A stretch of DNA of 64,000 nt from Escherichia phage HildyBeyeler: sequence record MZ501074. One strand, 5' to 3'. Below are positions 935 through 48,442 of this stretch, one piece after another (within the stretch, counting starts at the first letter, position 1; the number at the start of each line of letters is the position of its first letter). The notes beneath the pieces are model-generated. The model was not told the DNA's origin. It searched no databases and saw nothing but the letters and a program-made list of their open reading frames with translations. The position numbers and the translations under genes are program-made.

Positions 935-2270
935 ATGCAATTTTAGCTAATTGAACTGCTTTCTCCGGAGTCATAGTAATAGTTTTCCACCCGTTGTTAC
1001 GATATACTGCCATACGTCCAGAAGCCTGTCTTAGTCCAGTGCCACCTTTCATAATTAGATCTACAACAATAGGGTCGAGTTTACCATCGACAATACGTTG
1101 AACACGACCTGCAAGCTGTTCAATGAGAGATTCATTATTAATAAGACTCCCAGTTATTAAACAAGACAGCTCGTTAAGTGAAATACCTTCAGAGAAGATG
1201 CTTTGAGCTGCTGCAAGCACACACGGCCCGCCTTTTGCTATATCTTCCTGAATTTTTAATCGGTCATCTAAGTGGGTTGCTCCTATAATTTCATATGTTG
1301 TAACACCACGCTGTGTAAGAGCTTCTAGTACTATTTGGATTAACTCTGTTCTATCACTTACAATGAGTACTTTATGCCCCATATTCACATATAAATGCGC
1401 TAGGTTTATAATAGTCTCTCGATATTCGGGGTGATTATACACATCGTTAGCACGTAATGCCCACGGTACGTTTTGATTTCCTGATAGCTCAACAGGCACG
1501 GAGTACCTATGAATTGTAGGTGCAACAGTATTATTAACAGGCGGGCTAAAGATCTTATATCCAAAGAAATCTTTGAACATAACTTGTAGACCATCTTTAC
1601 GTTTTAATGTTCCAGATAGTCCAATTTTATAGCGCGCACAGGATATTTCTAGGAAATTAGTGAAAGTTGTAGCCACACAATGGTGAACTTCATCAACTAT
1701 AACAGTGCCGAATACTTTAGAAAGATTATTCGCATGTTTATTCACTGTTTGAATATTACTAACTACAATTGGTGGATCAATATTGTATTTCCCAGAACCT
1801 ATGATGCCCGGTTCAAACCCAAACCATTTACGAACTTCTGCCGCCCACATCTCACGAATAGATGTGTTAGTACAAATTACCAGGGTTTTCTGGCCAAATT
1901 TATACGCAAGTGCGAGGGCTAGGATAGTTTTGCCAAATCCAGGCTTACCATTAATAATACAGGTATCATCACACTCTTCATATATTGGGAGCTGGTCTTC
2001 TTCACGCAGCTTGAACTTAGGTTTTGGTATATCTACCGGAGCTAATGTGCGTTTATCGACTAATTCGTATTTTATTCCTTTAGCATCTAATAAGTCCAGA
2101 CGCGTAATAGGAATCCACTTAATCTCTTTGGCAACAACACCACTATTCTTATACATAATAGGGTATTTACTGGTCATTGTCTCTATGTGATAAGTGGTTT
2201 GCTTACTACAATAATCCCAAAGTTCATCATCGGGCTTGAAATAGGCTTTATTAGATATAACAACCTTCAT
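918..2270 (-). CDS. SF2 ATP-dependent DNA helicase (450 aa)
   Basis: Walker A GKPGFGKT, Walker B-like VIVDEVHH, helicase C-terminal motifs. Confidence 0.75.
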   Translation of the reverse strand: MKVVISNKAYFKPDDELWDYCSKQTTYHIETMTSKYPIMYKNSGVVAKEIKWIPITRLDLLDAKGIKYELVDKRTLAPVDIPKPKFKLREEDQLPIYEECDDTCIINGKPGFGKTILALALAYKFGQKTLVICTNTSIREMWAAEVRKWFGFEPGIIGSGKYNIDPPIVVSNIQTVNKHANNLSKVFGTVIVDEVHHCVATTFTNFLEISCARYKIGLSGTLKRKDGLQVMFKDFFGYKIFSPPVNNTVAPTIHRYSVPVELSGNQNVPWALRANDVYNHPEYRETIINLAHLYVNMGHKVLIVSDRTELIQIVLEALTQRGVTTYEIIGATHLDDRLKIQEDIAKGGPCVLAAAQSIFSEGISLNELSCLITGSLINNESLIEQLAGRVQRIVDGKLDPIVVDLIMKGGTGLRQASGRMAVYRNNGWKTITMTPEKAVQLAKIAFGNSL

Positions 2271-2764
2271 AATTTTATTCTAAGTCTAGGAATTTCAGGC
2301 TCCTCTTGATGGACTTGATAAATAACAGGGCTATTATTTACCAGAATATAGCTTATATAAGCTGGAACATAGGATAATACAAATGGATAAGGGACTTTAG
2401 CCACATAGCATTGGTATTTTCCATTATAAATTCTAGCTGAATGCAAAACTTTAGAGGTGACAACATCATAAAACGTAGTTTTCTTCCAATTAATAAGATT
2501 TCCATCAGAATCTATAAACTGGTTACGCTTTGACCCAACTAATTGAGACAACATTGATATTCTACCCCTAATAGGATAGAGCTTGTATGGTAATTCTTTC
2601 CGTTTCTCAAATAGAATAAGCCTACGTTGAGAAAACGTGCCAGGCAACTTCCTGTTATCTAGCACATATTTATTATATCTTGTTGTAATTACGGAATAAT
2701 CACCTTCTTGCTCAATTGATACAAACGCCCGTAACGCATAGACGGGCAATTTGAAATTAAGCAC
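2267..2764 (-). CDS. hypothetical protein (165 aa)
   Basis: ORF coupled by start/stop overlap to the polymerase and helicase genes. Confidence 0.5.
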   Translation of the reverse strand: MLNFKLPVYALRAFVSIEQEGDYSVITTRYNKYVLDNRKLPGTFSQRRLILFEKRKELPYKLYPIRGRISMLSQLVGSKRNQFIDSDGNLINWKKTTFYDVVTSKVLHSARIYNGKYQCYVAKVPYPFVLSYVPAYISYILVNNSPVIYQVHQEEPEIPRLRIKL

Positions 2765-5324
2765 CGAGAATCCTTTTCACGTTATCCAGATCTTTACATA
2801 TAGCAATAAACTTATCGTCCTTGTACTTGCTATGATCTGGATGCTCTTTATCCATTGCAGCTAATTTCTTATACTCGAACTCTGCATCAAGTAATACACC
2901 CTTGACATAGCGAGTATATTCATCATCATCAATACAAGCGATTGATGGGTGCTGTTTCTTCATCTTACCACAAGAATAGTCACGAGAACCTCCAGCTTCA
3001 GAATCTGAATCAATACCAATCGGACAGCCAGGAATACTGATACCACGGTCTTTCTGAATATTACGAATCAGGATTTCATTGTATTGGTCGATTAAGTCTT
3101 CACGAACAATAGCAACTACGGAGTCATGAACCAGCATAACAATCTTCATCTCTTGCTCTAGGCCAAGAGAAATGATCTCATTATCTGCATCTACAGCACC
3201 TAAAAGGAGACTATCAGAAGAAGCAGACTGAATGATTGCGTTAAATCCAGAACGAATTTCTTCCCCCTGAACGCCACGATCTTCAGAATGGATATTATGC
3301 AGACGACGTTTACGACCAAAGTGACTATAGATAAATCCATGATTCTTGATCTGATCGTGGCACTTATCGATCCAACGCTTAAGCTGTGGGAATTGACCAA
3401 AGTAAGTCTCAATGTACTCTTTAGCATCTGCAACAGTACACTCTACAAACGGTTCCCCAGTTTTAGCTGCTTGTTCGAGCAATGCTTCGTTAACAGAATG
3501 TGCTACTTTAGCTGGGCCAGAACCATACAGAATACCAAAGGTGATTGCTTTAGCTGCTTGACGCAGAGCTGGGAATAACTTTTTAACATCACGAGGTTCG
3601 CATTGGAGCTTAAATACCATGTGTGCGATGTTAGAGTGGAAGTCAGGGTATTTATCAGGTTCATTTCTCATGTTGATAAATACTTGTTGCATATTTCTAT
3701 CACCAGATAGAGCAGCAGCATAATAAACTTCCGCAGTTGTTAAGTCCCACGCGATTACACGATACCCAGGAGGAGCTACTACACAACCCTTGATAATAGA
3801 TTCATCACGAGGTAACTGTTGCAGGTTCAGTTTACCAGAAGAACTCAGACGACCAGAAGTGGTCATATGTTCATGGAAACCAGTACGAATGCACCCATCT
3901 GCATCAATACTCAGAAGAATCTTCTCAACATAAGTAGAGATTAGCTTAGTCAGCTTACGAATCTCTAGCAGAGTTTTAGCAATTGGATGCTGCGTAGCCA
4001 GTTCATTCAGAGCTTCTGCATCCGTAGAATCTGCACCAGTATCTGTTAACTTACCAGTTGGAGTCAAACCAACATAATCGAACAGAAGAACACGAAGTTG
4101 TTTAACAGAGTTCGGGTTAAATGCTTCATTCTGATCTTGTTCTAGCTGTTTAACTTCTGGATAAGTGTACAGTTTCTCACGGGCTTTATTCAGGTTATGG
4201 GTTAACTGATACTGAGCTTCTTTCAAACGATCAATAGAGATAGGTACGCCACGATCTTCGACACGTTGTAAGAATACGCAACCAGGCATCAAAACATCGT
4301 AATACAGACTACAAAGTTTTTCATTCTTCTCAATCTTTGGTAAGAAGAAGTTGTGTAAACGTAGGGTAGCATCTGTATCTTTCGCAGCATATGGCCACAT
4401 AATATCAAATGGAATTAAATCATAGGTGAAATCTTCTTTCTTGATTTTATGTGCTTTGCAGTAATCATCTTTGAACTTATCTAGTTCGAAGTCATAGTCA
4501 CCCATATCGGTATACTTCATTGCTAGGGATTTCAAGCCATGAGTACCCCGACGTTCGTCTAGAACATAGTGCTGCAACATGGTATCATGGAGCCTGCGTT
4601 CTTTATGTGCTTTATCAAAAGTAAGCCCCAGATGGTACTTATAAAAGTGCATATCAAACTTTAAGTTGTGAAAAACAATAGTGTGGTTTTCACTATCTAG
4701 AATTTTCTGGAGATAATATACTGCAACCTCTGTGAGACAATCAGAATCGATATATACACCCTGATATTCTTGGTGAGATATAGAAACACCAAGCAGATAA
4801 CCATCTCGACAGTATAGTGCTGAGGTTTCGGAGTCGAATGCGACGGGTCCGATAACCATATTATACACCATCTTGATATATTCTTCCGCCTCGTCAGGGT
4901 CAGTAATAGGACGGTAATCACCAGCTTTTGCAATCTTCTCACGACCATTGATAATATCGTGGATATTCTCTACTGTTGCATCAAAAACTGGTTTCATTTC
5001 AGGCTTAAAGTGTAACTGGGCTGGGCTGATACTCGCAATCCAGTTAGCATATCCATTATATTCTACACGTTTACCAGTATAGTCACCAATGCCTTTCTTA
5101 CCTGCGAAATACAGGAAAGGTTCAGCACCTACTAGTATAACAAAATCATAATCATTCGGATCAAACGGGTTTTCTGGTGTTCCAATAGTAATGTGCTTTT
5201 TAAGCAAACGACCAGATAACTTCTCGTTACACATATGGAATACATCAACTTCCTCGCCGTATAGCTGGAAATGTTTATCGTAACGAGTGTTACTTAGAGC
5301 TTTATCAACTACTGCGATTTTCAA
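2757..5324 (-). CDS. DNA polymerase, family A (855 aa), probable TTG start
   Basis: 3'-5' exonuclease and polymerase motifs (KAITFGILYGSG, LVHDS); 855 aa as in T5 DNA polymerase; GAGGAG RBS. Confidence 0.9.
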   Translation of the reverse strand: MKIAVVDKALSNTRYDKHFQLYGEEVDVFHMCNEKLSGRLLKKHITIGTPENPFDPNDYDFVILVGAEPFLYFAGKKGIGDYTGKRVEYNGYANWIASISPAQLHFKPEMKPVFDATVENIHDIINGREKIAKAGDYRPITDPDEAEEYIKMVYNMVIGPVAFDSETSALYCRDGYLLGVSISHQEYQGVYIDSDCLTEVAVYYLQKILDSENHTIVFHNLKFDMHFYKYHLGLTFDKAHKERRLHDTMLQHYVLDERRGTHGLKSLAMKYTDMGDYDFELDKFKDDYCKAHKIKKEDFTYDLIPFDIMWPYAAKDTDATLRLHNFFLPKIEKNEKLCSLYYDVLMPGCVFLQRVEDRGVPISIDRLKEAQYQLTHNLNKAREKLYTYPEVKQLEQDQNEAFNPNSVKQLRVLLFDYVGLTPTGKLTDTGADSTDAEALNELATQHPIAKTLLEIRKLTKLISTYVEKILLSIDADGCIRTGFHEHMTTSGRLSSSGKLNLQQLPRDESIIKGCVVAPPGYRVIAWDLTTAEVYYAAALSGDRNMQQVFINMRNEPDKYPDFHSNIAHMVFKLQCEPRDVKKLFPALRQAAKAITFGILYGSGPAKVAHSVNEALLEQAAKTGEPFVECTVADAKEYIETYFGQFPQLKRWIDKCHDQIKNHGFIYSHFGRKRRLHNIHSEDRGVQGEEIRSGFNAIIQSASSDSLLLGAVDADNEIISLGLEQEMKIVMLVHDSVVAIVREDLIDQYNEILIRNIQKDRGISIPGCPIGIDSDSEAGGSRDYSCGKMKKQHPSIACIDDDEYTRYVKGVLLDAEFEYKKLAAMDKEHPDHSKYKDDKFIAICKDLDNVKRILGA

Positions 5325-18902: not shown

Positions 18903-19071
18903 TTCTGTTCCTTTCTAAGAACGTATCATACTCAACCGTATCAACATATATGACACCATAGTCATCGGATTTATAGTCCATTTCCCATAGCTCACATCGA
19001 TAGCACCAACTACCATCCGCCCATACAAATATATCATCGGGATGTGTATACACAGATTTAACTATGGACAT
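18889..19071 (-). CDS. hypothetical protein (60 aa)
   Basis: ORF track. Confidence 0.35.
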   Translation of the reverse strand: MSIVKSVYTHPDDIFVWADGSWCYRCELWEMDYKSDDYGVIYVDTVEYDTFLERNRNGNK

Positions 19072-19886
19072 ATTTGTTTTCCCGGCATATAAGGTCTACC
19101 CTCTAGATGAGCTTCTACACGAGCAATAAAACCAGGATCACTGAAAGCATCTACTGCACCTTTACTCCAGTAAGGAATACCACGATCTTCCAGTTGGTAC
19201 ATATCACTACGAGTCATACCTTGATAGCCTGGTTTCGACGCTAGGGCACTATCATAGTAGTTAACTACCATAAGTTTCGCAGCAGTCCGATTAAGAACAG
19301 GGAATAGTTCCCAGTAGAAGTTAATTACTTGGTTAGAGCAACCAACTACAACGATCATATCTTGACTGGTAATACCATCAAAAATATTGTACATTTCTGC
19401 GTACGCTGGAGCATGCTCACCAAAAAAGATTACATTAGGTTTAACCCATTTATAATCATCTGGGTCAATAGAGTTATACCCAACATCAATAACCCGTTTA
19501 TTACTACTATTGTAGCTATCAGCTACAACAACCTCTTTTAAATATCCGTGAATGTGCAGAATATCACTATGTGGAACGCCAGCACGCTCAATAAGGTCAT
19601 CAACGTTGGTAGTCAAGTTTACTACTTGACCCGGATATTTCTTATACCATTCACCAATACGCAAGTGTGCAAGATTAGGTTCAACAGTTTCTAACTCTTC
19701 ACGCCGCTTGTTGTAAAACATATGGGTTTTATGATAAAAGTTACCACGAAAGGCGTGAATATTACATACTTCTTCTAGATCATAATCATCCCACAGTGCT
19801 TTACCACTAGCAGTATCGGTACGAAAAGCTCGTACACCACTTTCAACGCTCAAACCTGCACCGCTAATAATAATTAATCTACGCAC
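19062..19886 (-). CDS. Sir2-family (sirtuin-like) NAD-binding protein (274 aa)
   Basis: GAGLSVESGVRAFR (compare Sir2 GAGIS..SGIP.FR), NVDDLIERAG and catalytic-His context ILHIHGY. Confidence 0.65.
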   Translation of the reverse strand: MRRLIIISGAGLSVESGVRAFRTDTASGKALWDDYDLEEVCNIHAFRGNFYHKTHMFYNKRREELETVEPNLAHLRIGEWYKKYPGQVVNLTTNVDDLIERAGVPHSDILHIHGYLKEVVVADSYNSSNKRVIDVGYNSIDPDDYKWVKPNVIFFGEHAPAYAEMYNIFDGITSQDMIVVVGCSNQVINFYWELFPVLNRTAAKLMVVNYYDSALASKPGYQGMTRSDMYQLEDRGIPYWSKGAVDAFSDPGFIARVEAHLEGRPYMPGKQICP

Positions 19887-20727: not shown

Positions 20728-22554
20728 TTACTTAAGATTTAAGTGTTTTACTCTACCAAGAACTTCTTTTTGTTTCCCAGAATTGAAAGGCCTACTGCTA
20801 GGGGATCCCAAGTACCCGCAAACCCTACGTGTAACCTCTATTTCTTCAGACCCACAACTCGGACATACAAACCCACGTTCAGAGGCAACAGATTCACCCA
20901 TATACCCACAGTTGAAGCACTCATCAATTGGTATATTAACACCAATATAATGGCTACATTCTAGCCCCTTATCCACCACATACTCAAGAGCTTTGTGGAA
21001 CTTTTTCATTTGAGGTAGTTCCACAAATGATATATTACCACCATTAGCTATTTTGGTAAAATGAGCCTCGTACTCAAATTTAGTATCTGGGGCTACCTTC
21101 TCTCTTACGTCCAAATGGTGACTATTAGTGAGATAGCCTTTATCTGTTAGCCAAGAATACTCTGGGAATCTACGTTCTAGTAATTTATTAAAACGATTAC
21201 ATAGAGACTCACTAGGAGTAGCGTATAAGCTAAATCCAAGATTAGTCTCATTAGCTTTAACTTCGCAACGATTTTTTAGGTGAGTAAGAACTTCTTCTGT
21301 AAATTCAATACAATCCCTATGGGTTTGTGGTAGACCAAACATTATTTGGCACATCTCATAGACCCCAATGTATCCAAGAGATACAGAAGATCTACCCTCA
21401 AAAATAGGCCATACATACTCTTCCCCATCTAAACGCACACCAAAACCACCGTGCATATAAAGAATAGGGGCTTGTTTAGCCTTAACTTTCTTCAGTCTGT
21501 TTAAGAAGAAGTCATGCGCTTCAAAAGCCTCATCCACATATTTGTCTAGAATATCCCAGAAATCTTCAAAAACCCCATCTGCCTCAGCAGCAACCATAGG
21601 TAGATTAATAGACACTACACCTAAATTATTGCGCCCTGCAATTTCTCCGGAGGGGATAGCAGATAAAAAGCTACGACAACCCATAGGTGCTTTAAAATCA
21701 CCAGTAACAGCTACAACTTTCTCATAGCTTAAATAGTCCGGGTACATACGGGTAGCAGAACACTCAAGTGCTAGCTGTTTTATATCGTAGTTAGGATCGC
21801 CTGGATTTTTATTTAACCCTTCTTTAACTGAGAATACTAGTTTAGGGAAGATAGGGGTTGACTCAGCAGCACCTAAACCTTTAATACGGTTTTGGAGGAT
21901 GGCTTTCTGAATCATCCTTTCCTCCCACTCCTGTCCTAGCCCAAAGCCAAGCGTAACAAAAGGAGTCTGTCCATTAGAGTTAAATAATGAATTAGTTTCA
22001 TACTCTAGGGCTTGGAATGCGTCATAACACTCTTTTTCAGTGAGTTCAGTAGCATATACAGCAGCTTTCCTTTCATCCTTGAGCCAACGTAGACCACGAC
22101 CCAGGTGCTTATCATAAGACTTTCTGACATAAGGGGCTAAAACCTCATCGATACGATCAATAGAAGTGCCACCATACTGAGCACCAGATACTTGGGCAAT
22201 AATCTGAGCAGTGATTGCACATGCAGTAGTTATGGATTTAGGAGTTTCAATATTTGCATTACCAATTTTAGTACCATTCTTCAGCATGCCACCAAGGTCT
22301 ACTAAACAACAGTTAGTGTATCCCTGTGCCCTGTAATCCATATCATGGATGTGTATTTTACCTAGATTATGGGAGTCTAATAGATGTTTAGGTAATTCTT
22401 GTGCTACTAAATACTTGTTGATTTCTCCAGCTAATAAGTCTCTTTGGGTATGGAACATCTCACTAGGCTTATTAGCATTATTATGTTGTAAGTCCTTATC
22501 AGCAGTTAGAGTGAGCAGGCCTTTGCAATTCTCAATTAATTCATTCTCTGTCAT
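20728..22554 (-). CDS. nrdD: anaerobic ribonucleoside-triphosphate reductase (class III RNR), 608 aa
   Basis: C-terminal zinc ribbon CFNCG...CPSCG and glycyl-radical motif RVCGYLG. Confidence 0.9.
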   Translation of the reverse strand: MTENELIENCKGLLTLTADKDLQHNNANKPSEMFHTQRDLLAGEINKYLVAQELPKHLLDSHNLGKIHIHDMDYRAQGYTNCCLVDLGGMLKNGTKIGNANIETPKSITTACAITAQIIAQVSGAQYGGTSIDRIDEVLAPYVRKSYDKHLGRGLRWLKDERKAAVYATELTEKECYDAFQALEYETNSLFNSNGQTPFVTLGFGLGQEWEERMIQKAILQNRIKGLGAAESTPIFPKLVFSVKEGLNKNPGDPNYDIKQLALECSATRMYPDYLSYEKVVAVTGDFKAPMGCRSFLSAIPSGEIAGRNNLGVVSINLPMVAAEADGVFEDFWDILDKYVDEAFEAHDFFLNRLKKVKAKQAPILYMHGGFGVRLDGEEYVWPIFEGRSSVSLGYIGVYEMCQIMFGLPQTHRDCIEFTEEVLTHLKNRCEVKANETNLGFSLYATPSESLCNRFNKLLERRFPEYSWLTDKGYLTNSHHLDVREKVAPDTKFEYEAHFTKIANGGNISFVELPQMKKFHKALEYVVDKGLECSHYIGVNIPIDECFNCGYMGESVASERGFVCPSCGSEEIEVTRRVCGYLGSPSSRPFNSGKQKEVLGRVKHLNLK

Positions 22555-22744
22555 TGATTATTTCCTCAATAAACTTTATAGCTACTTTTGGTTCAATATT
22601 GAAGAATTCCGTAGCGCCGTCAAAATCTTTGTACTGGCAATTCTGCTCTTTAAAGTAGTTATGGGCTAATTTTTCTATTCGAACTGCACTACTATATTCT
22701 CCAATTTCAAATACTTTAATTTTTTCGGCATTACTCTTCTCCAC
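22541..22744 (-). CDS. hypothetical protein (67 aa)
   Basis: ORF directly downstream of minus-strand promoter 22760-22788. Confidence 0.4.
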   Translation of the reverse strand: MEKSNAEKIKVFEIGEYSSAVRIEKLAHNYFKEQNCQYKDFDGATEFFNIEPKVAIKFIEEIINDRE

Positions 22745-36245: not shown

Positions 36246-36468
36246 ATATTAATAAATTAGAGAACAGCGGGCCGATTACGCTGAGTGCAGAATCCAAACC
36301 GGAGTGCATTGAATAGAGTCGGTGGGTTAGTTGTAAAACTAGTACACAGTGGGCGGCAATCCCGGTTAGTGGCTAGAACGTGTAAAATGGGGCGTCTGAA
36401 ACCTCTCCCCTAAACTCTTCTCTAGTTTATAAATAGTGGGGTGTGGAAATCACTTATGTAGTAACACT

Positions 36469-36540
36469 GCCGATCTAGTATAAACGGTATTATCAAGCCG
36501 TAACTGGTGGAAGATGTAGGTTCGAATCCTACGATCGGTA
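36469..36540 (+). other. tRNA-like minihelix element (7-bp acceptor-like stem plus T-arm; no anticodon arm found)
   Basis: GCCGATC at 36469-75 pairs with GATCGGT at 36533-39; GTAGG-TTCGAAT-CCTAC T-arm at 36516-32; interior does not fold into D and anticodon arms. Confidence 0.3.
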
Positions 36541-37041
36541 AGAACTGGATAACTGGTGCTTTTAACGTAAAAGCTTCCGAGGTTAGTTGCGCACTGCCTA
36601 AACCACGCGGTAGTTGGTTCCAGACTAACCAACCAGTCTGCTGAATAGTTTTATTACGATTTAACTATGTCCAGGCTAAAGAAGAACTTTAGAAGGTATT
36701 CTAGGTGGTGAAGTTTTTCCTCCATATCGGAGTAGTTTTTCAAGCTACCAACAAAGTGGGAAATGCTGACATGAGAGATGTCACTAATGGTGCACAATAG
36801 CACAGGTAATTCGCGATAACTCCTGTTGAGTAGCAGCAAAAGGCGGGAAGTCATGACCCCAAGCCTAACCGAGTCCTCAATATACCGCAGGACATAACCA
36901 CTAAGTCACCCTGACTTAAACTGGAAAATAATAGACGTTACTGTATTTTGTCTTGAAATACTTAATGAGTGAGACTTATGACTCTCCCGGTATCGTCTGT
37001 ATTTTTAAGAGTTTTTACGAGAGTTCTTAAAAATACTTAAA

Positions 37042-47510: not shown

Positions 47511-47594
47511 ATGCGTCCAGGAAAGTTTAAAAAAGCTAGTTGGTCTAAAGAGTACAAAGAATACTTACTTAGCCTAGTAAAACGTAATAGTTAG
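47511..47594 (+). CDS. hypothetical small peptide (27 aa) between tRNA-Ile and tRNA-Met
   Basis: AGGA RBS; 3' end overlaps the tRNA-Met 5' end by 2 nt. Confidence 0.25.
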
Positions 47595-47664
47595 TTGGCA
47601 GAGTGGTTATGCGCCTCCTTCATACGGAGCGACTACAGTGGTTCAAATCCACTACTAACTACCA
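47593..47664 (+). tRNA. tRNA-Met or Ile2 (anticodon CAU), CCA encoded
   Basis: Acceptor AGTTGGC/ACTAACT (one mismatch), anticodon loop UU-CAU-AC, T-arm AGTGG-TTCAAAT-CCACT; short D-arm. Confidence 0.55.
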
Positions 47665-47677
47665 AACAGGAGATCTA

Positions 47678-48046
47678 ATGAAAGCGTATCAAAATCTTAA
47701 ATCTGGCGTAATTAATATTGTTCATAATAATCAGATTATTCAACTGTACTCTAAAGATGGTGAACTTAAACAAAAGGTTCTAGTTGAAGATCTAGATGGT
47801 ATCACACCTCATTTTGACCCAGAATCCTTTCGTGAAGTCAAAGTGGAAGTCGCCCCTCAAATTGAAGGTGGTCAACACCTAAATGTCAATGTGTTAAGTC
47901 GTGATCAGCTTTTGGATGCGCAGAAACATCCTGAAAAATACCCTCAATTAACTATCCGTGTTTCAGGGTACGCTGTGCGTTTTAACGCACTGACGCGTGA
48001 ACAGCAGAACGACGTTATTAGTCGTACATTTACTCAGGCGATGTAA
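47678..48046 (+). CDS. grcA: autonomous glycyl-radical cofactor (GrcA/YfiD-like), ~122 aa
   Basis: C-terminal glycyl-radical motif [31 protein letters not shown]; AGGAG RBS before 47678. Confidence 0.75.
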
Positions 48047-48127
48047 TGGGGCTTGGATACGGTTTCTACGAACTACGTAAGGTAGTCGAGCAAACTCCAT
48101 TTATCTCCCAAGTTTTAGGAGAAATGT

Positions 48128-48442
48128 GTGGATCGAGCATTAAGACGTCATCACCGGCAACGTGTAAAGAACAACCGCAAGAAGTATTGGACAGTCTTCC
48201 CACATGAAGAAAGCCCTAAACGGTTAGGTATTATCACTACTACTCCTTGTATCTGTTCTTGTTGGATGTGCGGGAACCCTCGCAAACACTTTAAGAATAG
48301 TAAAGCAGGGATGAAAACCTCGGAGATTAGGAAAATGGAAGCAATGATTACGGATATTTCAAATGATGAATTTGATGGCTTCGTAGGATTCGGGGAAGAT
48401 ATTAGCTCGGACTGTTTCGAAGATGAGCTCCCAGGTCTATGA
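48128..48442 (+). CDS. hypothetical Cys-rich protein (104 aa), GTG start
   Basis: AGGAG RBS 7 nt before the GTG; terminator follows. Confidence 0.45.
   Translation: MDRALRRHHRQRVKNNRKKYWTVFPHEESPKRLGIITTTPCICSCWMCGNPRKHFKNSKAGMKTSEIRKMEAMITDISNDEFDGFVGFGEDISSDCFEDELPGL

What the first reader, a model, noticed from the sequence alone, without database searches (positions are those of the whole stretch)
47678..48046. A GrcA-like glycyl-radical protein at the tRNA cluster edge, far from nrdD, with no NrdG in the window
The protein ends with the glycyl-radical signature RVSGYAVRF...TREQQNDV typical of YfiD/GrcA spare parts for glycyl-radical enzymes. nrdD (20728-22554) has its own RVCGY motif, but no radical-SAM activase (CxxxCxxC) is in the window. 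The phage may depend on a host activase and supply a spare glycyl-radical domain to repair oxygen-damaged enzyme.
Basis: partly seen in the sequence, partly recalled or inferred. Interest (0 to 1): 0.5.

Follow-up and report, generated by a model that had tools for sequence, protein, structure and literature searches.

The report
Phage spare part for pyruvate formate-lyase
This T5-like phage carries a small, well-conserved copy of the bacterial "spare part" protein GrcA/YfiD, which most likely repairs the host's oxygen-damaged pyruvate formate-lyase; a phage T4 homologue was shown to do this in 2001, so the finding is real but already known.

Summary
Window 47678-48046 (+) encodes a 122-aa protein whose C-terminal 60 residues are a glycyl-radical domain (Pfam PF01228, E 3.8e-18). 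It is 74% identical to E. coli GrcA and 79% identical to the PflB C-terminus, with the RVSGYAV radical loop intact. It matches phage T4 Vs.6/Y06I over its full length (52% identity). Y06I and E. coli YfiD are the two validated "autonomous glycyl radical cofactors": host PFL activase puts the radical on them, and they restore O2-cleaved pyruvate formate-lyase (Wagner et al. 2001).

The window is a T5-like phage. About 430 T5-like records carry the gene, often already annotated grcA or "pyruvate formate-lyase", and it is under strong purifying selection (dN/dS 0.07). Neither the window nor the rest of a 97%-identical genome encodes a radical-SAM activase. The phage must therefore borrow host PflA for this protein and host NrdG for its NrdD.

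The likely repair target is host PflB, not the phage NrdD.

One modest addition concerns gene order. In ~350-kb jumbo phages and in Aeromonas phage 65 the homologue sits inside the nrdD/nrdG cluster. PFL makes formate, and formate is the reductant of this type of NrdD. The gene may therefore protect the formate supply for anaerobic dNTP synthesis. That link is inferred, not shown.

Novelty: already known. Interest: low.

The parts
47678..48046 (+). grcA-like gene (122 aa): stand-alone glycyl-radical protein, full-length homologue of T4 vs.6/Y06I and a diverged member of the bacterial GrcA/YfiD family
   Evidence: Pfam PF01228 E 3.8e-18. TIGR04365 GrcA 121.5 bits. PHROG 1209 full length. 6owr E 2e-30. 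52% identity to T4 Vs.6 over the full length. dN/dS 0.07 among 28 T5-like alleles.
47858..48043 (+). C-terminal glycyl-radical domain (residues 61-122), homologous to PflB 698-759. The radical glycine is Gly97 in RVSG97YAV (codon 47966-47968).
   Evidence: 49 of 62 residues identical to E. coli PflB 698-759 (alignment). 40 invariant columns across 19 phage and bacterial GrcA proteins all lie in residues 63-119. The model matches the YfiD NMR structure and the PFL C-terminus. dN/dS 0.017.
47678..47857 (+). N-terminal half (residues 1-60). It is diverged from bacterial GrcA but alignable (MKAYQ.. versus MITGIQ..). It corresponds to the YfiD region needed for binding cleaved PFL and for efficient activation.
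   Evidence: Alignment. dN/dS 0.113, so it is constrained. AF2 predicts a beta-sheet with pLDDT 73-79 and no fold match. The role of YfiD residues 1-60 is from PMC8683613.
47668..47672 (+). Shine-Dalgarno sequence AGGAG, 5 nt before the ATG
   Evidence: Read directly from the sequence.
47589..47664 (+). tRNA-Met(CAT), the last gene of the tRNA cluster and immediately upstream. No promoter-like or terminator-like site lies between it and the gene, so co-transcription with the tRNA region is likely.
   Evidence: ARAGORN. Promoter/terminator scan finds nothing between them.
20728..22554 (-). nrdD, class III (anaerobic) ribonucleotide reductase of the formate-using E. coli/T4 type. It is a possible downstream beneficiary of PFL-derived formate and also lacks a phage activase.
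   Evidence: Pfam NRDD E 5.8e-158. 52% identity to E. coli NrdD, with PMGCRSFL (Met382-Gly-Cys384 equivalents) conserved. Formate as reductant: PMC4493059.

Best explanation
The gene encodes a phage version of the autonomous glycyl-radical cofactor (GrcA/YfiD type, a full-length homologue of T4 Vs.6/Y06I).

Proposed mechanism:
1. The 122-aa protein is made from the phage tRNA-region transcript.
2. Host pyruvate formate-lyase activase (PflA, a radical-SAM enzyme) abstracts a hydrogen from Gly97 in the RVSGYAV loop. That loop is identical to the loop around Gly734 of PflB.
3. The radical-bearing C-terminal domain docks into host PflB molecules whose own C-terminal radical domain has been cut off by O2 at Gly734. 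This restores pyruvate + CoA -> acetyl-CoA + formate.
4. The N-terminal half helps recognise the damaged PflB.

The phage encodes no activase, so it depends on host PflA for this protein and on host NrdG for its NrdD.

The likely benefit is to keep fermentative ATP/acetyl-CoA production and formate supply running in micro-oxic infected cells. T5-type phages shut off and degrade the host genome (textbook knowledge, not tested here), so the cell can no longer make new PflB or its own GrcA.

Shown here: homology, motif identity, strong constraint, absence of any activase, and gene context in other phages. Shown elsewhere for the T4 homologue: activation by PFL activase and rescue of cleaved PFL. 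Inferred: that the T5-type protein does the same, and the physiological benefit.
For: - Glycyl-radical domain: Pfam E 3.8e-18.
- Best solved relatives are E. coli GrcA (E 2e-30, 74% identity over residues 50-121) and the PflB C-terminus (E 4.7e-27, 79% over 62 residues) (tblastn).
- RVSGYAV and 40 other positions are invariant across phage and bacterial GrcA proteins.
- Full-length 52% identity to T4 Vs.6/Y06I. Its activation by PFL activase and rescue of O2-cleaved PFL are reported in Wagner et al. 2001 (pmid 11444864), summarised in PMC8683613.
- The model's C-terminal half superposes on YfiD and on PFL.
- dN/dS is 0.07 overall, 0.017 for the C-half and 0.113 for the N-half among 28 alleles.
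- The gene is present in about 430 T5-like records at >=90% identity and in 1582 phage records in all. In the 40 records listed, those with a named host infect enterobacteria (one Pseudomonas); the tally by organism name also includes Aeromonas.
- No NrdG or PflA homologue in the window. In the parts of the 97%-identical Salmonella phage Tennessee genome lying outside the window there is also none, and its only in-frame CxxxCxxC in an annotated gene region belongs to the counterpart of the small ORF at window 48128-48442.
Against: - No experiment exists for the T5-type protein.
- Its N-terminal half is much more diverged from E. coli GrcA than T4 Y06I is. It scores 121.5 bits on the NCBIfam GrcA equivalog model, against 151 for Y06I and 234 for E. 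coli GrcA, with a cutoff of 170. In YfiD this half matters for binding cleaved PFL, so binding behaviour could differ.
- AF2 predicts a folded beta-sheet N-half, whereas the YfiD N-half is disordered by NMR. Model confidence is only moderate (mean pLDDT 71).
- The in-vivo benefit to any phage has never been demonstrated, to my knowledge.
Confidence: 0.8

Rival explanations
1. Formate-supply module for the phage's anaerobic ribonucleotide reductase. This extends the main explanation rather than replacing it. The selected function would be to keep host PFL producing formate, which is the obligatory reductant of the formate-type class III RNR (NrdD) that the phage itself encodes. The gene would then belong functionally to the phage dNTP-synthesis set.
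For: - In ~350-kb jumbo phages the homologue lies between nrdD and nrdG with touching or overlapping ends (SE_PL: nrdD 2123-3928, grcA-like 3941-4303, nrdG 4300-4770 of L009; also L038-L040).
- In Aeromonas phage 65 the order is nrdD-nrdG-vs.6-nrdC-nrdB. These are two different gene orders, so probably independent arrangements.
- Of the lineages carrying the gene that were sampled, T5-like, T4-like, the ~350-kb jumbo phages and Aeromonas phage 65 carry nrdD. nrdD occurs in only 2796 of 50,697 phage records.
- The window's NrdD is 52% identical to E. coli NrdD and keeps the Met-Gly-Cys active-site motif.
- Formate is the reductant of the E. coli/T4-type enzyme (PMC4493059, citing Mulliez 1995).
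Against: - In T5-like and T4-like phages the gene is not within 8 kb of nrdD (25 kb away in this window).
- Several NrdD-carrying coliphage groups in the listing (records of about 137, 148 and 89 kb) did not appear among the listed GrcA-like hits, so NrdD evidently does not require it.
- Large enterobacterial phages tend to collect many metabolic genes, so co-occurrence is weakly informative.
- No paper proposing or testing this link was found.
Confidence: 0.35
2. Spare part for the phage's own NrdD. The small protein would replace the O2-cleaved C-terminal glycyl-radical domain of the class III reductase, activated by host NrdG.
For: - NrdD is also a glycyl-radical enzyme cleaved by O2.
- The homologue sits next to nrdD/nrdG in jumbo phages and in Aeromonas phage 65.
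- PMC8683613 speculates that spare parts may exist for other glycyl-radical enzymes.
Against: - The domain is 79% identical to the PflB C-terminus and carries the PFL loop RVSGYAV. The phage NrdD has RVCGYLG preceded by a Cys4 zinc ribbon that the small protein lacks.
- E. coli GrcA (74% identical to this protein's C-terminal half) aligns with the NrdD C-terminus only at chance level (E 13).
- The T4 homologue was activated by PFL activase and rescued PFL.
Confidence: 0.04
3. Decoy or inhibitor. The protein would soak up host PflA activity or occupy PflB, redirecting host pyruvate metabolism, rather than repairing PflB.
For: - The same sequence features (a perfect PflA substrate loop, a PflB-like docking domain) would also suit a competitive binder.
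- The N-terminal half is diverged from the bacterial one.
Against: - The T4 homologue restores activity rather than inhibiting it.
- Near-total conservation of the catalytic-domain residues, including those not needed for PflA recognition, argues for a working radical domain (dN/dS 0.017, 40 invariant positions).
Confidence: 0.05

Closest known systems
Phage T4 Vs.6 / Y06I (NP_049730; RefSeq name 'autonomous glycyl radical cofactor GrcA')
   Same: Similar size (120 versus 122 aa). Same N-terminus (MKAYQ). Alignable over the full length (52% identity, E 1e-38). Identical [10 protein letters not shown] radical loop. Phage-encoded, with dependence on host PFL activase. Both are in PHROG-type phage families and in lytic coliphages that also encode NrdD.
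   Different: T4's C-terminal 41 residues are identical to E. coli GrcA, while the T5-type protein mixes GrcA-like (KHPEKY) and PflB-like (LLDA, TQxM) residues. The middle of the N-half is shorter and more diverged in the T5 type. T4 encodes its own NrdG, and T5-likes encode no activase at all. The genomic location differs: T4 between regB and denV, T5-like at the end of the tRNA cluster.
E. coli GrcA (YfiD), PDB 6owr; NCBIfam TIGR04365; InterPro IPR011140
   Same: A stand-alone ~14-kDa protein. The C-terminal half is a PFL-type glycyl-radical domain (74% identity over residues 50-121). The N-terminus is weakly alignable (M-x-x-G/A-x-Q, then a hydrophobic stretch, then a charged stretch).
   Different: Below the NCBIfam trusted cutoff (121.5 versus 170 bits), because only residues 50-122 match the model. 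It is 5 residues shorter. It is expressed from a phage transcript rather than from the host's stress- and anaerobiosis-regulated grcA promoter.
C-terminal domain of pyruvate formate-lyase PflB (residues 698-759; PDB 1h16/2pfl)
   Same: 79% identical over 62 residues without gaps. Same glycine loop. The model superposes at 2.6 A over 51 residues.
   Different: Lacks the ~700-residue catalytic barrel with Cys418/Cys419, so it cannot be an enzyme on its own. GenBank labels such as 'pyruvate formate-lyase' or '2-ketobutyrate formate-lyase' for this gene are therefore misnomers.
Short bacterial forms GrcA2 / GrcA3 (NCBIfam NF008341, NF038360; ~80 aa)
   Same: They match the same C-terminal domain (90.7 and 116.5 bits).
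   Different: Those models are only 78-80 positions long and so cover no N-terminal half, and both scores are below their cutoffs (145 and 158). The phage protein keeps a constrained N-terminal half.

Membership tests
Autonomous glycyl radical cofactor (GrcA/YfiD/Y06I) | Small stand-alone protein (~80-130 aa) consisting essentially of a C-terminal glycyl-radical domain, with no catalytic barrel | tested here: met
   122 aa. Pfam Gly_radical covers residues 62-103 at 66.4 bits, and there is no other domain. The ORF is bounded by tRNA-Met upstream and a stop at 48044-48046.
Autonomous glycyl radical cofactor (GrcA/YfiD/Y06I) | PFL-type radical loop RVSGYAV with the radical glycine, and high identity to PflB residues ~698-759 | tested here: met
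   RVSG97YAV is identical. 49 of 62 residues are identical to PflB 698-759. The loop is invariant in 19 family members.
Autonomous glycyl radical cofactor (GrcA/YfiD/Y06I) | Full-length homology to an experimentally validated member (YfiD or Y06I), including the N-terminal half | tested here: met
   52% identity to T4 Vs.6/Y06I over residues 2-122, E 1e-38. The N-terminal pattern is shared with bacterial GrcA in the multiple alignment.
Autonomous glycyl radical cofactor (GrcA/YfiD/Y06I) | Score above the NCBIfam TIGR04365 equivalog cutoff (170 bits) | tested here: not met
   121.5 bits. Calibration: the validated T4 Y06I also fails (151.1 bits), while E. coli GrcA scores 234. The cutoff therefore delimits bacterial GrcA for annotation and is not a defining property of the functional family.
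Autonomous glycyl radical cofactor (GrcA/YfiD/Y06I) | Glycyl radical installed by PFL activase (PflA) | not testable with these tools
   Inferred only, from the identical substrate loop and from the T4 homologue. The phage encodes no PflA.
Autonomous glycyl radical cofactor (GrcA/YfiD/Y06I) | Restores activity to O2-cleaved PFL | not testable with these tools
   Shown for YfiD and Y06I only (PMC8683613).
Pyruvate formate-lyase / 2-ketobutyrate formate-lyase (as labelled in several GenBank records) | ~760-aa ten-stranded barrel with the Cys418-Cys419 active site | tested here: not met
   Only residues 60-122 match TIGR01255 (positions 682-744 of 744), at 86.3 bits against a cutoff of 994.
Glycyl-radical-enzyme activase (radical SAM; NrdG/PflA), considered for the neighbouring ORF 48128-48442 | CxxxCxxC cluster within a (partial) TIM-barrel radical-SAM domain of at least ~150 aa, with homology to NrdG/PflA | tested here: not met
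   The motif string is present (CICSCWMC). However, the protein is 104 aa with no Pfam hit, matches PHROG 4499 of unknown function, shows no tblastn similarity to NrdG/PflA, and occurs only in T5-like loci.

The most novel reading that the evidence does not exclude
Phage GrcA-like proteins may be part of the phage's anaerobic dNTP-synthesis machinery. By keeping host PFL alive they would secure formate, the reductant of the phage-encoded formate-type NrdD. This would explain two things: why the gene was found in phage lineages that carry nrdD wherever this was checked, and why it is embedded in the nrdD/nrdG cluster in jumbo phages and in Aeromonas phage 65.

The T5 type, which has no activase of its own, would be an extreme case. 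Two phage glycyl-radical proteins (NrdD and the GrcA-like protein) would both be charged by two different host activases after host shut-off.
Probability: 0.3. Interest if true: 0.45.

Novelty: already known. Interest (0 to 1): 0.18.

Why it matters
It matters only modestly. It is a tidy example of a lytic phage carrying a repair part for a host central-metabolism enzyme, and of total reliance on host radical-SAM activases.

Practical value:
1. It corrects the widespread mislabelling of this gene as 'pyruvate formate-lyase', 'acetyltransferase' or 'ribonucleotide reductase subunit' in T5-like genomes.
2. It flags a testable link between PFL-derived formate and phage anaerobic ribonucleotide reduction. 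That link could bear on how T4-, T5- and jumbo-type coliphages replicate in the micro-oxic gut.

Tried and rejected
1. **Hidden activase.**
- tblastn with E. coli NrdG, E. coli PflA and a jumbo-phage NrdG against the window found nothing. The same search against the parts of Salmonella phage Tennessee outside the window also found nothing.
- The best hit was a 19-aa stretch (E 0.029) inside a 122-aa tail-module ORF. It has no complete Cys motif, so I judged it chance.
- A DNA pattern scan for CxxxCxxC in that genome gave 19 hits. All were out of frame, stop-containing or antisense, except the small ORF after grcA.

2. **The small Cys-rich ORF (48128-48442) as an Fe-S partner or activase.** Rejected. 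It has no Pfam hit, is 104 aa, is confined to T5-likes, and does not accompany grcA in T4-like or jumbo phages. T4 vs.5 and vs.7 are unrelated.

3. **Spare part for NrdD.** Rejected on sequence grounds.

4. **Decayed remnant of a captured pflB.** Rejected, because dN/dS is 0.07 and the gene is kept in ~430 genomes.

5. **Promoter/terminator scan around the gene.** Nothing above shuffled expectation.

6. **Fold search for the N-terminal half.** No match.

7. **Literature searches** for a T5-specific study or for a published formate/NrdD rationale found none. The T4 genome review (PMC150520) is not held.

8. **Technical notes.** It was rerun without them. Two scripts failed because loci are bundled several to a file. 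They were rerun.

Full report
**1. What is there**

Window 47678-48046 (+) is an ORF of 122 codons plus stop. Its ATG follows an AGGAG (47668-47672) by 5 nt. It lies 13 nt after tRNA-Met(CAT) (47589-47664), the last of 21 tRNA genes found between 36468 and 47664. The mechanically longer ORF from GTG 47603 overlaps the tRNA and is not supported by homologues, which all begin MKAYQ.

The database matches are:
- Pfam Gly_radical (PF01228): 66.4 bits, E 3.8e-18.
- Best solved relatives: E. coli GrcA/YfiD (6owr, E 2e-30, residues 50-121) and the C-terminus of pyruvate formate-lyase PflB (E 4.7e-27, residues 61-122 against PflB 698-759, 49 of 62 identical).
- tblastn with E. coli GrcA finds only this place in the window (74% identity, E 1.3e-33).

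**2. Whose genome**

The region is 92-94% identical at the DNA level to many T5-like phages (Demerecviridae, Tequintavirus and relatives), and 452 records match. The protein is 99% identical to the one on a 121,750-bp IMG/VR contig, a length that from memory equals that of phage T5 (L010). It is 99.2% identical to that of Salmonella phage Tennessee.

In those records the gene is annotated variously as 'grcA: autonomous glycyl radical cofactor', 'pyruvate formate-lyase', '2-ketobutyrate formate-lyase', 'acetyltransferase-related' or 'hypothetical'.

**3. Family and prior knowledge**

A protein search of 50,697 phage records finds the gene in 1582 records:
- about 430 T5-like records at >=90% identity;
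- T4-like phages at ~52% identity over the full length;
- ~350-kb jumbo phages at ~64% identity.

The T4 copy is gene vs.6 (NC_000866 63557-63919), named in RefSeq 'autonomous glycyl radical cofactor GrcA'. It aligns with the window protein from residue 2 to the end (52% identity, E 1e-38) and shares the N-terminus MKAYQ.

T4 Vs.6 is Y06I. Wagner et al. 2001 (BBRC 285:456, pmid 11444864) showed that E. coli YfiD and T4 Y06I acquire a glycyl radical from the PFL activase and reconstitute the catalytic centre of O2-fragmented PFL. PMC8683613 summarises this. It adds that these are the only two validated spare parts. It also reports that YfiD residues 1-60 are disordered but are needed for binding cleaved PFL and for efficient activation.

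A 19-sequence alignment of phage and bacterial members has 40 invariant columns, all in residues 63-119. It also shows a weak but consistent N-terminal pattern (M-K/I-x-G/A-x-Q, then a hydrophobic strand, then a charged stretch). The window protein is therefore a full-length, diverged GrcA and not merely a captured PflB tail.

On the NCBIfam GrcA equivalog model the scores are as follows, against a cutoff of 170 bits:

| Protein | Score (bits) |
|---|---|
| Window protein | 121.5 |
| T4 Y06I (validated) | 151.1 |
| E. coli GrcA | 234 |

The validated T4 protein also fails, so the threshold delimits bacterial GrcA rather than the functional family.

**4. Is it a working gene?**

Among 28 distinct alleles from T5-like loci, dN/dS is 0.070 overall, 0.017 for residues 61-122 and 0.113 for residues 1-60. 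Both halves are constrained.

An AlphaFold2 model (mean pLDDT 71) gives a helix / beta-hairpin / helix C-terminal half. This half matches the YfiD NMR structure (top hit) and PFL (2.6 A over 51 residues). The N-terminal half is predicted as a beta-sheet (pLDDT 73-79) with no fold match. I treat the N-terminal prediction as tentative.

**5. Activases**

The window has no homologue of NrdG or PflA (best tblastn E 2.6 and 0.21).

The window maps to about 10.4-74.6 kb of the 110-kb Tennessee genome, at 79-98% identity per aligned segment, mostly about 97%. The remaining parts of that genome carry no annotated activase and no NrdG/PflA similarity. Across the loci read, which include that remainder, the only in-frame CxxxCxxC in an annotated gene region is the counterpart of the small ORF described next.

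It is not an activase:
- it has no Pfam hit;
- it matches PHROG 4499, of unknown function;
- it is too short for a radical-SAM fold;
- it is found only in T5-like loci and never beside grcA in other lineages.

That T5-type phages have nrdD without nrdG is already noted by Dwivedi et al. 2013 (PMC3653736).

The phage must therefore use host PflA for the GrcA-like protein and host NrdG for NrdD.

**6. Target**

The domain is PFL-type. It has RVSGYAV and is 79% identical to the PflB C-terminus. The phage NrdD ends ...CPSCGSEEIEVTRRVCGYLGSP... with a zinc ribbon. E. coli GrcA, 74% identical to this protein's C-terminal half, shows only chance similarity to that region (E 13). The repaired enzyme is therefore host PflB (possibly also TdcE), not NrdD.

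**7. Mechanism proposed**

The protein is expressed from the tRNA-region transcript. No promoter-like or terminator-like site separates it from the tRNAs. Host PflA places the radical on Gly97. The domain then docks into O2-cleaved PflB and restores pyruvate -> acetyl-CoA + formate.

Why a phage would carry it is inference. T4- and T5-type phages shut off and destroy the host genome (textbook knowledge, not tested here). Damaged PflB then cannot be replaced, and the host's own inducible grcA cannot be expressed.

**8. A possible link to NrdD**

Gene context points to a link:
- In the jumbo Salmonella phage SE_PL the order is nrdD (2123-3928), grcA-like (3941-4303), nrdG (4300-4770), with overlapping ends. 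Three further ~350-kb phages have the same order (L038-L040).
- In Aeromonas phage 65 the order is nrdD-nrdG-vs.6-nrdC-nrdB.

These are two different arrangements inside nucleotide-reductase clusters.

The GrcA-like-carrying lineages I could check for nrdD (T5-like, T4-like, the ~350-kb jumbo phages and Aeromonas phage 65) all encode it. NrdD occurs in only 2796 of 50,697 phage records.

The window's NrdD is 52% identical to E. coli NrdD and keeps the PMGCRSFL (Met-Gly-Cys) motif. The E. coli/T4-type enzyme uses formate as reductant (PMC4493059, citing Mulliez et al. 1995). PFL is the cell's formate source.

Protecting PFL may therefore protect anaerobic dNTP synthesis. Against this:
- The gene is 25 kb from nrdD here, and it is not within 8 kb of nrdD in T4-likes.
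- Several NrdD-carrying coliphage groups in the listing (records of about 137, 148 and 89 kb) were not among the listed GrcA-like hits.

I found no paper stating or testing this idea. I put it at about 0.3.

**9. Verdict**

The feature is a conserved, already-annotated full-length homologue of an experimentally characterised T4 protein. It is already known and of low interest.

Noticed in passing
window 48128-48442 (+): A 104-aa ORF with a GTG start and AGGAG 6 nt upstream. It has a very basic N-terminus and a CxCxCxxC cluster (TTTPCICSCWMCGNPRK), which is the only in-frame CxxxCxxC in a plausible gene of the window. It matches PHROG 4499 (unknown function) and has no Pfam hit. It is conserved in all 29 T5-like loci examined and absent from T4-like and jumbo loci. 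Possibly a small zinc- or metal-binding protein. Some records annotate only its C-terminal 58 aa, starting after the Cys cluster.
   Followed up: partly
window 48046-48207 (+): A 53-aa ORF whose ATG overlaps the grcA-like stop codon (ATGTAATGG), which suggests translational coupling. It matches PHROG 31464. It also overlaps the start of the 104-aa ORF by 80 nt in another frame, so one of the two overlapping calls may be spurious.
   Followed up: no
window 20728-22554 (-): The nrdD allele is unusual among T5-likes. Only 49 phage records have >=95% protein identity, and about 400 T5-like records have only ~60% (for example SPC35). In contrast, the grcA-like gene is >=90% identical in ~430 records. 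This points to allele replacement (mosaicism) at nrdD.
   Followed up: partly
window 22541-22744 (-): A 67-aa ORF immediately upstream of nrdD, overlapping its start. It matches only the C-terminal part of the MUG113/T5orf172 (GIY-YIG-related) domain models (E 5e-6 and 1e-4). It looks like a remnant of a homing-endonuclease-type gene, which might relate to the nrdD allele swap.
   Followed up: no
window 19062-19886 (-): A Sir2-family (NAD-dependent deacetylase/ADP-ribosyltransferase-like) protein of 274 aa (Pfam SIR2, E 1.5e-24), lying about 0.8 kb past the 3' end of nrdD on the same strand.
   Followed up: no
window 36468-36541 (+): ARAGORN calls a tRNA-Ser with anticodon ACT, which is not a normal serine anticodon. 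The Tennessee record annotates a pseudo-tRNA with undetermined anticodon in its tRNA cluster, which may or may not be the counterpart. Possibly a degenerate or non-canonical tRNA.
   Followed up: no
L009 2123-4770; L038-L040; L072 5628-8234: In ~350-kb jumbo enterobacterial phages the GrcA-like gene lies between nrdD and nrdG. In Aeromonas phage 65 it follows nrdD-nrdG and precedes nrdC-nrdB. This is gene-order evidence for a functional tie between phage GrcA-like proteins and class III ribonucleotide reduction.
   Followed up: partly
window 47678-47857 (protein residues 1-60): AlphaFold2 predicts a four- to five-stranded beta-sheet for the N-terminal half (pLDDT 73-79). The equivalent half of E. 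coli YfiD is reported to be disordered in solution. There is no structural match in the PDB.
   Followed up: partly
protein P0033 (Citrobacter phage YZU-L1): A 67-aa version of the T5-type protein, starting at residue ~56 and annotated 'ribonucleotide reductase subunit'. It is either a mis-called start or a naturally N-terminally truncated form resembling the bacterial short forms GrcA2/GrcA3.
   Followed up: no
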